NCBI GenBank assembly: GCA_964627035.1 | Contig: CAZVKN010000005.1 | Location: 652-64,651, forward strand | Direction of reading: 5' to 3' | Length of the DNA: 64,000 nucleotides | Source: an uncultured bacterium | Lineage (GTDB): Bacteria; Electryoneota; AABM5-125-24; Hatepunaeales; Hatepunaeaceae | Shown here: piece after piece, positions 3,596-6,494 of the stretch | Position numbering within the stretch: position 1 is the first letter of the stretch | How the letters are laid out: the number at the start of each line of letters is the position of its first letter | Translations under genes and position numbers: made by a program | Notes under the pieces: model-generated | Database searches by the model: none | Told to the model about the DNA's origin: nothing | What the model saw: only the letters and a program-made list of their open reading frames with translations

Positions 3596-3931
3596 TCATA
3601 ATATTGCATAATAGCATATAACTGACCGAAATGCAACAAAACAGAGTGAATCCTGAATAAATAATCCATAAGCTGTGCCGACAGTGGGAAAACGAGCGGC
3701 TTCGATCGGTGGGTCTTCCGGATCCCAGTCAGCAAGATCATAAACCACTACACCATAACGGTTTGCGCAATACAACAAGTCCTCGACGACTTTAACATCC
3801 TCGTAGTTTCCGGTCACCATTGCTTCCGAAACGAAGGAAACACCGTCATTCGGTTGTGCAAGCAGGATGGATGTTACTAAAATAATCGTAAAGATTATTA
3901 AACGCATTTTTCCTTGTCTATAAACATTCAT
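3596..3931 (-). pseudogene. Truncated paralog or duplicate of the 5' end of the downstream LVIVD-repeat T9SS cargo gene; it has its own signal peptide and no C-terminal domain
   Basis: The product shares about 80 aa of identical sequence (NDGVSFVSEAMVTGNYEDVKVVEDLLYCANRY...GLFIQDSLCFVA) with the N-terminus of the 3960..6494 protein, then diverges and stops. The underlying DNA is about 237 bp of near-identical direct repeat. Confidence 0.45.
3632..3868. repeat. Direct repeat copy 1 (about 237 bp, near 100% identical over the first 209 bp) of 6219..6455
   Basis: Read directly: tgcaacaaaacagagtgaatcctgaataaataatccataagctgtgccgacagtggg... is identical at both loci. The copies diverge 5' of 3632/6219 and 3' of about 3868/6455. 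Confidence 0.85.
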
Positions 3932-3959
3932 TATTTGAACATGATATTCTTTTTAGCGA

Positions 3960-6494
3960 CTATTTCATCAAAAGCACTTTCCGGCTGATAGTTGACTCAC
4001 CTGAGTGCAATCGAATGATGTATAAGCCCGACGACAGATTTGAGCAGTTCCAAACAGTTTGATGCACTCCCGCTGATTGTCGTCCCTTCACCAGCTTCGC
4101 AACTTCTCTTCCGGACAGGTCGAATACTTTGAGCGTAACATGCGCATCACGATCCAATTGATAATCGATTTGCGTGACAGAATTGAATGGGTTAGGAAAC
4201 GCTGGATGCAAAGCAAACTCCAACGGAATATCATCTTTTCCAGATACTGCCAAAGGAACGCCAGTGCCATACAGTATGACATCCAATTGCCGTTCCTGCG
4301 AATAAATTGTCAACTGTCCTGAGAAATGATCGCTCGTGTCAGGTGAAAAACTTATACTAAGCACTGTATCCTGACCTGCTGCAAGAACCAATACGCTGTC
4401 TAACTCAGAAATAAAAACATCATTACTCACTATTACACTGTCAATTGCAATATCTCGCTGAGTTTGATTGGTAATCACCAACTCCCAGTTGATGGTAGAA
4501 TCCACTGCAATTTCACCAAAGTCGTGCTCCGTAGCGGATAGAGTTAGATGCCATACACCCAGTATCTGTCCGACATCATATATGCTTACATCATACTTAT
4601 CAGCCACTGTCATGTAACCACGTTCCACGTCAACGTCCAGTTTGCGCGCCACGCCTGGTGTGTCGTATGAAGCAAGCAGTTCCGGCTCTTCAGGATCATC
4701 CAAGGTAAACACCTTAACACCATCATTGCCGTCAGCAATGAACAGCAGATTATTAAACAGTTTGATATCCCGTCCATGACGCACCTCTTCTGTAAAATAC
4801 ACTAATTCCGGCTCAAGAGGATCTGCTACTGATACAACAGTCAATCCTATAAGATCCCAACTACCTGCAATCCAATACAGATAATCACCAGATTTTATTC
4901 CTTTTTCCCACTTATGTCCACGCGGAATACGAAGCGGCTCACCGACCGAATGCAATTCTTCTGGATCGCTCCAATCATACATTAGTACTTCCGAATACTC
5001 CCAGTTGTAGCTGGTTGGAACGTACAGCAGAGTATCCGTAGCAACACACCCCAACGCATGATGGTGATCCTCACTAACATGTATAGCAACTAATTCAGGA
5101 TTCACATGGTCGGTAAAAGAGCATATGATGATAGCTCGGTTGTATACTGTAATCGTATAATTTCCATGAAAGATTGAACTTGAAGACAGTGCGGCTTCTA
5201 TATTCCTGTGAATGACAGTTGGATTATTTGGATTGACAACCGATATTACGCTAAGTGATCCCCAGCCAAAGTATGCGATCGTATCTATCAGTGCTACTGC
5301 TTGATCATGTTCATTTGACGTTCCTCTTACGTAGAAAGAATCAACAACAGCTACTTGTTGGGGGTTATAAATGTCTTCAATGGAGAAAACACGAAAACGT
5401 CCCTGATACCCGTTAGGCGTTGGGAAGATCCACGGCAATGCGTCAGCTACATACAGATAATTCCCCTGAACAACAACATCAAGTGGTATTCCGGTATTGT
5501 TATTTATATGGATTAGTTCAGGTTCGCGGGGATCTCCGATATCAACGATTTTTAAACCGCGTTCATAAGCTGTAGCGAGAAGATAATCATTCCATATTGC
5601 TAATAACTTTCTTGATAATCCATCTGTCTGAAGAAATCCTAACCTTTGTAAGTTATTAGGATCACTAACATCGGCAATAGACGTAGGACCTCTATCGCCA
5701 TATAACTTGCCGTCATTATATAAACTACCACTCATCCCATGAATATAGCCTTGGTTGTCACGATACACCAAAGTATCAAGCAATTGCATTTCTAACGGAT
5801 TGCTAATATCAATTGAGCGCAAAGTACCGGTACCGATAAAAGCTACTTCCGATTCAATTGCAAAGTCGGCAGTAGAGTAATCTAGTAATTGGGAAATAAG
5901 CCGCATTTGATGAGGTTCAGATATGTCTATAGCTGTCAAATAGGTATCATGCTCTTGTCCCCATGCCCCAATCCATAATACATCATCATATACAATCATC
6001 GTACGTATTTCACTACGTGCATCAATAAGTCCAAGTTCCTGCGGTCTTTGTGGATCACTAACGTTAACTGAATAAACTCCAGTCCGATAAGCCAACACGT
6101 AGACAATCTCATCCTGCACAGTTACCGATACAGCAGGAGTAGCATCTTCGCAGTATCCTAACATCTCAACCGAATGAAAATCGGATATGTCATAGATTCC
6201 GAGCCCGTTCCCACCGTCTGCAACAAAACAGAGTGAATCCTGAATAAATAATCCATAAGCTGTGCCGACAGTGGGAAAACGAGCGGCTTCGATCGGTGGG
6301 TCTTCCGGATCCCAGTCAGCAAGATCATAAACCACTACACCATAACGGTTTGCGCAATACAACAAGTCCTCGACGACTTTAACATCCTCGTAGTTTCCGG
6401 TCACCATTGCTTCCGAAACGAAGGAAATACCGCCATTCGGTTGTGCGAAAATTGTAGTCGCTACAAAGAGAATAATAATGAATATCAAATGCAT
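3960..6494 (-). CDS. T9SS-sorted LVIVD-repeat beta-propeller protein
   Basis: Signal peptide MHLIFIIILFVATTIFAQP. More than ten units resembling the LVIVD repeat (YDISDFHSVEM, VNVSDPQRPQELG, IDISEPHQMRLIS, ADVSDPNNLQRLG, VDIGDPREPELI, VSVADPLEPELVY, FTLDDPEEPELLASY). C-terminus PNPFNSVTQIDYQL...LKVFDLSGREV...SGLYIIRL...RKVLLMK. Confidence 0.8.
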   Translation of the reverse strand: MHLIFIIILFVATTIFAQPNGGISFVSEAMVTGNYEDVKVVEDLLYCANRYGVVVYDLADWDPEDPPIEAARFPTVGTAYGLFIQDSLCFVADGGNGLGIYDISDFHSVEMLGYCEDATPAVSVTVQDEIVYVLAYRTGVYSVNVSDPQRPQELGLIDARSEIRTMIVYDDVLWIGAWGQEHDTYLTAIDISEPHQMRLISQLLDYSTADFAIESEVAFIGTGTLRSIDISNPLEMQLLDTLVYRDNQGYIHGMSGSLYNDGKLYGDRGPTSIADVSDPNNLQRLGFLQTDGLSRKLLAIWNDYLLATAYERGLKIVDIGDPREPELIHINNNTGIPLDVVVQGNYLYVADALPWIFPTPNGYQGRFRVFSIEDIYNPQQVAVVDSFYVRGTSNEHDQAVALIDTIAYFGWGSLSVISVVNPNNPTVIHRNIEAALSSSSIFHGNYTITVYNRAIIICSFTDHVNPELVAIHVSEDHHHALGCVATDTLLYVPTSYNWEYSEVLMYDWSDPEELHSVGEPLRIPRGHKWEKGIKSGDYLYWIAGSWDLIGLTVVSVADPLEPELVYFTEEVRHGRDIKLFNNLLFIADGNDGVKVFTLDDPEEPELLASYDTPGVARKLDVDVERGYMTVADKYDVSIYDVGQILGVWHLTLSATEHDFGEIAVDSTINWELVITNQTQRDIAIDSVIVSNDVFISELDSVLVLAAGQDTVLSISFSPDTSDHFSGQLTIYSQERQLDVILYGTGVPLAVSGKDDIPLEFALHPAFPNPFNSVTQIDYQLDRDAHVTLKVFDLSGREVAKLVKGRQSAGVHQTVWNCSNLSSGLYIIRLHSGESTISRKVLLMK
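6219..6455. repeat. Direct repeat copy 2 (5' coding region of the LVIVD-repeat gene)
   Basis: Same sequence as 3632..3868. Confidence 0.85.

What the first reader, a model, noticed from the sequence alone, without database searches (positions are those of the whole stretch)
3596..6494. Near-perfect 237-bp direct duplication creates a truncated, signal-peptide-bearing copy of the 5' end of the LVIVD cargo gene
3632..3868 and 6219..6455 are essentially identical, with 209 bp lacking a single mismatch. Codons ~20-100 of the 844-aa gene are therefore repeated 2.6 kb downstream as an independent 111-aa ORF (3596..3931). That ORF has its own, diverged, signal peptide and a stop shortly after the duplication boundary. 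The signal-peptide region upstream is only about 60% similar. This implies an older paralog whose interior was later homogenised by gene conversion, or a very recent segmental duplication into an older scaffold. The fragment could be a decoy, a secreted N-terminal peptide, or simply a pseudogene.
Basis: seen in the sequence. Interest (0 to 1): 0.6.

Follow-up and report, generated by a model that had tools for sequence, protein, structure and literature searches.

The report
Truncated duplicate of a secreted-protein gene start
Just after a large surface-protein gene lies a real, short, near-identical copy of that gene's first 76 mature codons with its own older signal peptide; it is most likely a dead remnant of a second gene copy and is ordinary, apart from making the locus prone to recombination.

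Summary
Window 3632-3859 and 6219-6446 (minus strand, offset 2587) match at 226 of 228 bases, with a 209-base perfect run. The signal-peptide codons upstream match at only 29 of 48, and everything beyond both ends is random. Both new junctions recur, base for base, in more than 10 contigs from four assembly sources. Contigs that break do so exactly k-1 or k bases into the repeat, so this is not a chimera. The 111-aa ORF consists of a signal peptide, about 1.75 blades of a double beta-propeller cut inside a strand, and 11 unrelated codons. It has no T9SS C-terminal sorting domain. It abuts AT-rich DNA that holds a second, frameshifted gene. None of four orthologous loci (35-65% identity) has such a fragment. 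Best reading: a pseudogene remnant of a tandem homologue whose interior was recently overwritten by recombination with the neighbouring gene. One thing short reads cannot settle is copy number. The repeat makes a cycle in the assembly graph, and one scaffold (L009) carries the fragment's signal peptide fused to the whole gene body. A collapsed second full-length copy, or copy-number variation, is therefore not excluded. Interest is low.

The parts
3960..6494 (-). Full-length 844-aa T9SS cargo gene: signal peptide, double LVIVD beta-propeller (aa ~24-640), Ig-like domain (650-746), C-terminal sorting domain (773-842)
   Evidence: ORF. Pfam Por_Secre_tail 3.3e-11 and LVIVD 42 bits. AF2 model with pLDDT 85.9. 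Tandem-propeller fold matches.
6447..6494 (-). Signal peptide S1 of the full gene (MHLIFIIILFVATTIF, before AQP)
   Evidence: Read from the sequence. 60% nt identity to S2.
6219..6446 (-). Repeat copy 1 (R1): codons 17-92 of the full gene (AQPNGGISF...LCFVA)
   Evidence: 226/228 identical to 3632-3859.
3932..3959 (-). 28-nt spacer between the stop of the full gene and the first ATG of the fragment ORF. No terminator, so the fragment would be co-transcribed.
   Evidence: Sequence. No terminator-like site in 2400-6700. One scaffold (L009) has an A/T difference at about 3940.
3596..3931 (-). 111-aa fragment ORF. The likely real start is ATG 3907, which aligns with the start of the full gene.
   Evidence: Called as a gene on 4 contigs (P0092). 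No Pfam or PHROGs hit.
3860..3907 (-). Diverged signal peptide S2 (MRLIIFTIILVTSILL, before AQP)
   Evidence: 29/48 nt identical to S1, same length and register.
3632..3859 (-). Repeat copy 2 (R2). The 5' edge of the recombination tract lies between 3840 and 3860. Mismatches at 3841 and 3846.
3631..3632 (.). Abrupt 3' breakpoint. In the protein it lies after residue 92 (CFVA|DGG), inside strand E88-93 and the LVIVD motif. 11 unrelated codons and a stop follow.
   Evidence: Alignment. DSSP of the model. The junction is reproduced in ENA, JGI and Logan contigs.
2581..3631 (.). AT-rich (31-39% GC) gene-poor stretch between the fragment and the convergent cargo gene. No remnant of the rest of the propeller gene.
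   Evidence: Composition. tblastn of p844, p762, p736 and p950 finds nothing beyond aa 1-92. No Rfam hit, tRNA, terminator or convincing terminal inverted repeats.
3260..3456 (-). Frameshifted remnant of a small membrane-anchored protein gene (a neighbouring pseudogene)
   Evidence: The intact homologue P0096 matches frame -2 for aa 1-24 and frame -1 for aa 26-66.
370..2580 (+). Convergent downstream T9SS cargo gene (PKD domains plus CTD)
6564..9416 (-). Upstream C25-like T9SS cargo gene. Its position before the propeller gene is conserved at the 50% orthologue locus L005.

Best explanation
The 111-aa ORF is a non-functional 5' remnant of a second, tandem homologue of the LVIVD propeller cargo gene. 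Only its start survives: an old, diverged signal peptide (S2) followed by 228 nt. Those 228 nt were recently overwritten from, or exchanged with, the neighbouring full-length gene by homologous recombination, either gene conversion or unequal crossing-over. The tract edge lies just after the AQP signal-peptidase site. The rest of the second copy is gone. The sequence switches at 3632/3631, in the middle of a beta-strand, to AT-rich DNA that carries another decayed gene. If translated, the product would enter the periplasm by its Sec signal peptide. It lacks the C-terminal domain that T9SS needs and holds less than two blades of a 14-blade double propeller, so it should neither be exported nor fold. 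The one likely consequence is structural. Two 228-bp direct repeats now bracket the whole gene body, and they are a substrate for RecA-type deletion or tandem amplification of the 2587-bp unit. Shown: the repeat, its mosaic identity, both junctions in many assemblies, the domain layout, and absence from orthologous loci. Inferred: the order of events, the lack of function, and the recombination proneness.
For: Mosaic identity: 226/228 in the core against 29/48 in the signal peptide, and random beyond. Fisher p = 1.9e-14. The recency is not selection: the orthologue P0002 has only 55% third-position identity in the same segment. S2 looks like a family member: same length, ATG in register, 60% identity against 19-50% for 27 control signal-peptide pairs, and an AQPNDGVSF motif like the orthologues' AQPNGGVSF. 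Truncation: no trace of residues 93-844 downstream. The break lies inside strand E88-93. No CTD or any Pfam hit in the fragment. The neighbouring small gene is frameshifted. No transposase, integrase or RT among the ORFs of at least 150 aa scanned; four (57998-61192, 53948-54742, 61277-62974, 62982-63809) were not scanned. No second N-terminal copy at four orthologous loci, L004-L008. Reality of the structure: there are 100% identical full-path scaffolds from four ENA samples (L001, L002, L003, L101). JGI contigs stop exactly 119 nt into the repeat from each side (L010, L011, L093, L095, L103, L104). A metaSPAdes contig stops 54 nt in, and a Logan contig 30 nt in. In L003 a paired-end scaffold bridges S2 to the AT-rich flank across a 100-N gap inside R2. 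Logan contig L097 reads S2-R-AT-rich without a break.
Against: Scaffold L009 encodes S2 fused to the complete gene body (P0094, 852 aa). Its two overlapping ends differ at one base. This is what a genome with two or more full units would give, so 'the rest of the second copy is gone' may be false in some or all genomes. The signal-peptide homology is not decisive, since controls reach 50%. No close relative (>65% aa) was available to show the ancestral state. No expression or read-depth data were available.
Confidence: 0.6

Rival explanations
1. Collapsed tandem array or copy-number polymorphism. The real genome, or part of the population, carries two or more full-length units (S1-gene, then S2-gene, ...) before the truncated copy. 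Short-read assemblers walked the cycle only once.
For: The repeat creates a graph cycle, R-body-spacer-S2-R. L009 is exactly one turn (2587 nt) plus 87 nt and encodes a full-length protein that starts with S2. Its ends differ at one base. It starts 53 nt before that SNP, as a k=55 bubble branch would, so two spacer variants coexist in that sample. Every assembly breaks or needs scaffolding at the repeat.
Against: Four independent long scaffolds give the single-turn path. In L009's own sample the upstream scaffold L106 stops 54 nt into the repeat. That fits a fragmentary low-coverage graph in which the cycle is emitted alone. The SNP may simply be strain variation. No depth data were available.
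Confidence: 0.2
2. Functional small periplasmic or secreted protein: a decoy, chaperone-like module or regulator made from the highly conserved N-terminal module of the cargo.
For: The ORF is intact, with a plausible Sec signal peptide and an AAGGA motif 5 nt before ATG 3907. It would be co-transcribed with the cargo gene, since no terminator lies between them. Residues 20-95 are the best conserved part of the family: 91% against 65% overall for P0002.
Against: It is cut inside a beta-strand of the second blade, so it is not a domain. The tail is 11 random codons ending in AT-rich DNA. There is no CTD. It is absent from all four orthologous loci. There is no family or homologue other than the parent gene.
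Confidence: 0.05
3. Single-step chimera. S2 belonged to an unrelated downstream cargo gene. A microhomology-mediated event at the shared AQP-coding motif (GCACAACCG) joined it to a copied piece of the propeller gene. No old paralogue was involved.
For: The identity edge coincides with the AQP site. AQP-coding signal peptides occur in at least four neighbouring cargo genes, and unrelated signal peptides reach 50% identity.
Against: Two mismatches (3841, 3846) lie 14-19 nt inside the identical block. There the fragment reads NDGV where the orthologues read NGGV or NENI. The old sequence therefore already encoded this family's mature N-terminus. S1 and S2 have equal length and the same register.
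Confidence: 0.1
4. Assembly artefact: only one copy exists.
For: A 209-nt perfect repeat exceeds common k-mer sizes. L003 has an N gap in the repeat.
Against: JGI unitig L010 reads the end of R1, the body, the spacer, S2 and all of R2 in one piece. Both unique junctions, S2-R and R-AT-rich, recur in ENA, JGI and Logan assemblies of different samples.
Confidence: 0.02
5. Programmed variation system: a DGR template/variable repeat pair or a silent cassette for antigenic variation.
For: A near-identical repeat pair in and next to a surface-protein gene.
Against: No reverse transcriptase or recombinase among the ORFs of at least 150 aa scanned; four near the far end (57998-61192, 53948-54742, 61277-62974, 62982-63809) were not scanned. 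The repeat is at the 5' end of the gene, not the 3' end. The two mismatches are A/G in one direction and G/A in the other, so they are not adenine-specific. There is only one cassette, and it is identical rather than diverse. There is no sequence variation among samples.
Confidence: 0.01

Closest known systems
Gene remnants (5' pseudogene fragments) left by decay of tandem paralogues, with gene conversion between the copies
   Same: Two adjacent homologous starts. Sharply mosaic identity (99% next to 60%). An abrupt loss of homology and an early stop. A neighbouring frameshifted gene.
   Different: The donor and the remnant are only 29 nt apart. The converted tract runs right up to the truncation point, so conversion preceded or accompanied the truncation. 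No intact paralogue is seen in any relative.
[quoted passage not shown]
   Same: A 228-bp direct repeat brackets a 2.4-kb unit. One scaffold (L009) has the junction that amplification would create.
   Different: The repeats here are pieces of the gene itself, not IS elements. Neither amplification nor deletion has been demonstrated, because no read-depth data were available.
T9SS type A cargo proteins with LVIVD beta-propellers (Pfam PF08309 plus PF18962)
   Same: The parent gene is a textbook member: signal peptide, propeller, Ig domain, CTD. It sits in an array of at least 9 such cargo genes.
   Different: The fragment lacks the CTD and more than 85% of the propeller.
Diversity-generating retroelement TR/VR pairs
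   Same: A short near-identical repeat associated with a surface-protein gene.
   Different: No RT, the wrong end of the gene, and no adenine-specific mismatch pattern.

Membership tests
T9SS type A cargo (parent gene 3960-6494) | C-terminal sorting domain (PF18962/TIGR04183 type) | tested here: met
   Por_Secre_tail E = 3.3e-11, 43.8 bits against a cutoff of 27, residues 766-840. The AF2 model shows a beta-sandwich at 773-842.
T9SS type A cargo (parent gene 3960-6494) | N-terminal Sec signal peptide | tested here: inconclusive
   The sequence MHLIFIIILFVATTIFA|QP looks typical, and the AF2 pLDDT is below 50 for residues 1-19. No dedicated signal-peptide predictor was available.
T9SS type A cargo (fragment ORF 3596-3931) | C-terminal sorting domain | tested here: not met
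   No Pfam hit at E <= 0.01. No CTD-like sequence in 2500-3630 in any frame.
LVIVD beta-propeller (PF08309) | Repeated LVIVD units that form closed propeller(s) | tested here: met
   Parent gene: LVIVD 42 bits against a cutoff of 20.2. The AF2 model is all-beta over 24-640, and Foldseek matches tandem 7-bladed propellers. The fragment has only strands E24 to E88, about 1.75 blades, and is cut within a strand.
Gene conversion or recombination between paralogues | Tract of near-identity with sharp borders inside otherwise diverged homologous sequence | tested here: met
   2/228 against 19/48 mismatches, Fisher p = 1.9e-14. Synonymous sites are saturated in the orthologue comparison.
Gene conversion or recombination between paralogues | The flanking diverged sequence is truly homologous (an old paralogue) | tested here: inconclusive
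   60% identity against a control range of 19-50%. A shared AQPN-x-G-x-SF motif. The 3' flank is missing, so only one side can be tested.
Tandem duplication-amplification | Novel junction (end of unit joined to start of unit) and raised copy number | tested here: inconclusive
   The junction S2-R-body is present in L009, but a graph-cycle artefact explains it equally well. Read depth is not testable with these tools.
Diversity-generating retroelement | Reverse transcriptase near the TR; VR at the 3' end of the target; A-specific TR/VR differences | tested here: not met
   No RT among 28 of the 32 non-overlapped ORFs of at least 150 aa scanned; 57998-61192, 53948-54742, 61277-62974 and 62982-63809 were not scanned. 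The repeat is at the 5' end. The mismatches are A>G and G>A.
Mobile-element insertion at the breakpoint | Terminal inverted repeats, target-site duplication, transposase or integrase, tRNA target | tested here: not met
   Only weak, short inverted repeats. No tRNA. No PHROGs or viral-contig match. No transposase domains.
Assembly chimera | Junctions confined to one assembly or pipeline | tested here: not met
   The same junctions occur in ENA (metaSPAdes-like, k=55 breaks), JGI (k=119 breaks) and Logan (k=31) contigs from different samples.

The most novel reading that the evidence does not exclude
The two 228-bp repeats act as a natural copy-number switch for this T9SS cargo gene. Unequal recombination between them amplifies the 2587-bp unit, giving extra full-length copies that start with the S2 signal peptide, as encoded by scaffold L009. 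Alternatively it deletes the unit, leaving only a truncated S1 stub. The wild population would then be heterogeneous for the dosage or presence of the surface propeller protein.
Probability: 0.15. Interest if true: 0.35.

Novelty: new member of a known kind. Interest (0 to 1): 0.15.

Why it matters
It matters little beyond annotation hygiene. The 111-aa ORF is deposited as a gene in public collections (P0092). In one assembly it appears as an 852-aa 'protein' with a swapped signal peptide (P0094). Both are better flagged as a remnant and a repeat-induced path. The locus is a clean worked example of how a repeat of about 200 bp inside a gene shapes metagenome assemblies: breaks at k-1 or k bases, an N gap, and a cycle scaffold. 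If read depth showed amplification or deletion, it would be a modest natural case of repeat-mediated copy-number variation of a secreted cargo gene in an uncultured marine bacterium.

Tried and rejected
(1) I looked for the rest of the second copy. tblastn of the 844-aa protein and three neighbouring cargo proteins against 2500-3960, at E up to 100, found nothing beyond aa 1-92.

(2) I looked for a mobile element at the breakpoint. There were no convincing terminal inverted repeats or target duplications, no tRNA, no Rfam family, no terminator, and no PHROGs or viral-contig relatives.

(3) I looked for close relatives to fix the ancestral state. Scans of genome contigs and metagenome contigs with the 844-aa protein found nothing. 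The protein search gave orthologues only at 65, 50, 40 and 35% identity, and none has a downstream fragment.

(4) Taxonomy. The nearest GTDB representative for the window's pyruvate phosphate dikinase is 74% identical (an uncultured bacterium), and a Calditrichaeota MAG is at 72%. There is no close genome.

(5) DGR and antigenic-variation cassette readings were rejected on location, mismatch pattern and the absence of an RT or recombinase.

(6) A paper search for the sample accession found nothing.

(7) P0095, a 316-aa 'homologue', turned out to be the same DNA translated with TGA read as Trp. It is not an intact relative.
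Full report
THE OBSERVATION

The window carries one near-identical direct repeat, on the minus (coding) strand, at an offset of 2587 nt. Counting base by base, the core 3632-3859 vs 6219-6446 is 226/228 identical. The mismatches are at 3841 and 3846, and the perfect run is 3632-3840, which is 209 nt. The 48 nt upstream, the signal-peptide codons as far as the aligned ATGs at 3907 and 6494, are 29/48 identical without gaps. 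Further upstream identity is 22%, and on the 3' side of 3631 it is 21%; both are random. No other repeat in the 64 kb comes close. The next best are the CTD-coding 3' ends of four cargo genes, at 74-89%.

THE GENES

ORF 3960-6494(-) encodes an 844-aa protein with LVIVD repeats, an Ig-like domain and a Por_Secre_tail sorting domain. An AlphaFold model built on 32 homologues (pLDDT 85.9) shows an all-beta region at 24-640, an Ig domain at 650-746 and a CTD at 773-842. Foldseek matches tandem seven-bladed propellers. It sits in a chromosomal array of at least nine T9SS cargo genes, among housekeeping genes.

The fragment ORF 3596-3931(-) starts 29 nt after the stop of that gene, with no terminator between them. 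It encodes a signal peptide (MRLIIFTIILVTSILLA|QP), then 76 residues that differ from residues 17-92 of the neighbour at only two positions (D/G and V/I), then 11 unrelated residues and a stop. The homology ends after ...LCFVA. That is inside strand E88-93 and inside the LVIVD motif (CFVA|DGGNGLGIYDIS). The fragment therefore holds about 1.75 blades and no CTD, and it gets no Pfam or PHROGs hit.

ARTEFACT OR REAL?

The exact 844-aa protein occurs on five contigs. The neighbouring genes occur on eight or nine contigs.

- Four ENA scaffolds from different samples (L001, L002, L003, L101) reproduce the whole path 100% identically.
- In L003 the second repeat copy holds a 100-N gap. Its edges lie 54 to 55 nt into the perfect repeat from either side, so paired ends bridged S2 to the AT-rich flank.
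- JGI contigs from several samples end exactly 119 nt into the perfect repeat. This holds from the upstream side (L103 and L104 end at 6309) and from the downstream side (L093 and L095 end at 3750). The middle unitig behaves the same way (L011 spans 6337 to 3722; L010 spans 6337 to 3632).
- A metaSPAdes-type scaffold ends 54 nt in (L106, at 6374). A Logan contig ends 30 nt in (L105, at 6398).

These are the textbook signatures of a true repeat in k = 119, 55 and 31 de Bruijn graphs. L010 alone reads the end of R1, the body, the spacer, S2 and the whole of R2 in one piece, so two copies exist in one molecule. A chimera is excluded for practical purposes.

WHAT SHORT READS CANNOT TELL

The repeat makes a cycle: R, body, spacer, S2, R. 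The cluster of the 844-aa protein contains P0094, an 852-aa protein that is the fragment's signal peptide fused to the complete body. Its scaffold L009 (2674 nt) is exactly one turn of the cycle plus 87 nt. In the same sample the upstream scaffold L106 stops 54 nt into the repeat. That pairing is what a fragmentary graph gives when the cycle is emitted on its own. However, L009's two overlapping ends differ at one base (A or T at about window 3940), and L009 begins 53 nt before that site, as a k=55 bubble branch would. Two spacer variants therefore coexist in that sample. They could be two strains or two tandem units. A Logan contig (L097) also crosses the second copy without breaking. I cannot decide between one turn and several without read depth, and I give the collapsed-array or polymorphism reading about 0.2.

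HISTORY

The contrast of 19/48 against 2/228 mismatches (Fisher p = 1.9e-14) rules out a simple duplication followed by uniform divergence. Protein-level selection is also ruled out. The 65% orthologue P0002 keeps 91% of the amino acids in this segment but only 55% of the third positions. So a recent recombination tract lies on an older 5' end.

Is that older end a true paralogue? S1 and S2 have the same length and register, and their identity (60%) is the highest of 28 signal-peptide pairs anchored on AQP. Controls reach 50%, however. More telling are the two mismatches, which lie inside the mature N-terminus. There the fragment reads AQPNDGVSF and the orthologues read AQPNGGVSF, AQPNENITF and similar. 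The old sequence therefore already encoded this family's N-terminus.

None of four orthologous loci (65, 50, 40 and 35% identity) has a second N-terminal copy downstream. One of them (L005) keeps the upstream C25-like neighbour. The second copy is thus lineage-specific. Downstream of the break there is no trace of the rest of the gene. The DNA there is AT-rich (31-39% GC). It contains a small membrane-protein gene broken by a frameshift, shown by the intact 194-aa homologue P0096 matching two frames. There are no mobile-element marks. The stretch between the two convergent cargo genes looks like a small graveyard of decaying genes.

MECHANISM AND FUNCTION

Established knowledge of T9SS is that cargo needs the C-terminal domain to cross the outer membrane. 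A propeller also needs all its blades to close. A signal peptide plus 1.75 blades cut mid-strand should therefore reach the periplasm at most and be degraded. I commit to 'pseudogene remnant of a tandem homologue, recently converted by its neighbour' at about 0.6.

The remaining practical effect is that 228-bp direct repeats 2.4 kb apart are good recombination substrates. Compare recombination between 438-bp repeats 1.5-10.5 kb apart (PMC4627823) and RecA-dependent repeat-flanked duplication used as bet-hedging (PMC9946442). They could delete or amplify the cargo gene. That is the most novel reading still open (probability about 0.15).

COMPARISON AND VERDICT

The parent gene passes the tests for an LVIVD-type T9SS cargo. 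The fragment fails the CTD test. DGR, cassette, mobile-element and chimera readings each fail defining tests. This is a new instance of a well-known kind of thing: a gene remnant with a conversion tract. Interest 0.15.

Noticed in passing
window 3260-3456 (-): A small membrane-anchored protein gene (MTDIENRVAKLERENRLMKIGGLF...) is broken by a frameshift at about 3383-3385. The intact 194-aa homologue P0096 (GCA_041294325.1) matches frame -2 for aa 1-24 and frame -1 for aa 26-66. The family has no Pfam or PHROGs assignment.
   Followed up: yes
L009 (ENA SUTE22-1_SAMN10231921 scaffold_31556), equivalent to window 3993->3632 then 6218->3907: This scaffold is one full turn of the 2587-nt cycle plus an 87-nt overlap. 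It encodes an 852-aa 'protein' (P0094) with the fragment's signal peptide on the full gene body. Its two ends differ at one base (A/T at about window 3940).
   Followed up: partly
L097 (Logan SRR9166047), equivalent to window 3929->2504: A k=31 Logan contig crosses the 228-bp repeat without breaking, while another Logan contig (L105) breaks 30 nt into copy 1. The cause may be low-coverage pruning or a genotype without the first copy. It is unexplained.
   Followed up: no
window 9594-9859, 12104-12337, 16001-16266, 19007-19272: The CTD-coding 3' ends of four T9SS cargo genes share 74-89% nucleotide identity. This is far more than the rest of those genes share, and it suggests exchange or strong constraint on the sorting domains within the array.
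   Followed up: no
window 18760-18856 and 45362-45458: An intergenic element of about 95 nt is present twice in inverted orientation (82-83% identity). It has three direct TTCGTCAC heptamers and, about 40 nt further on, an inverted GTGACGAAGTGAC. One copy lies upstream of a 152-aa gene and the other 255 nt upstream of lexA. There is no Rfam match.
   Followed up: partly
window 46132-46251 / 46282-46401: A 120-nt direct repeat (71% identity, 150-nt spacing) lies inside the unannotated 376-aa ORF 45618-46748, which has no Pfam hit.
   Followed up: no
window 6500-6545 (-): A GC-rich hairpin (GGGGTGGAAGTTTAAGTTCCCACCCC) lies between the C25-like gene and the propeller gene. It may be a terminator or attenuator without a T-run, and the consensus scan missed it.
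   Followed up: no
P0095 (Logan gene call on L097): A 316-aa 'protein' in the public collection is this fragment plus the AT-rich DNA, translated with TGA read as Trp. It is a wrong-code gene call, not a real longer product.
   Followed up: yes
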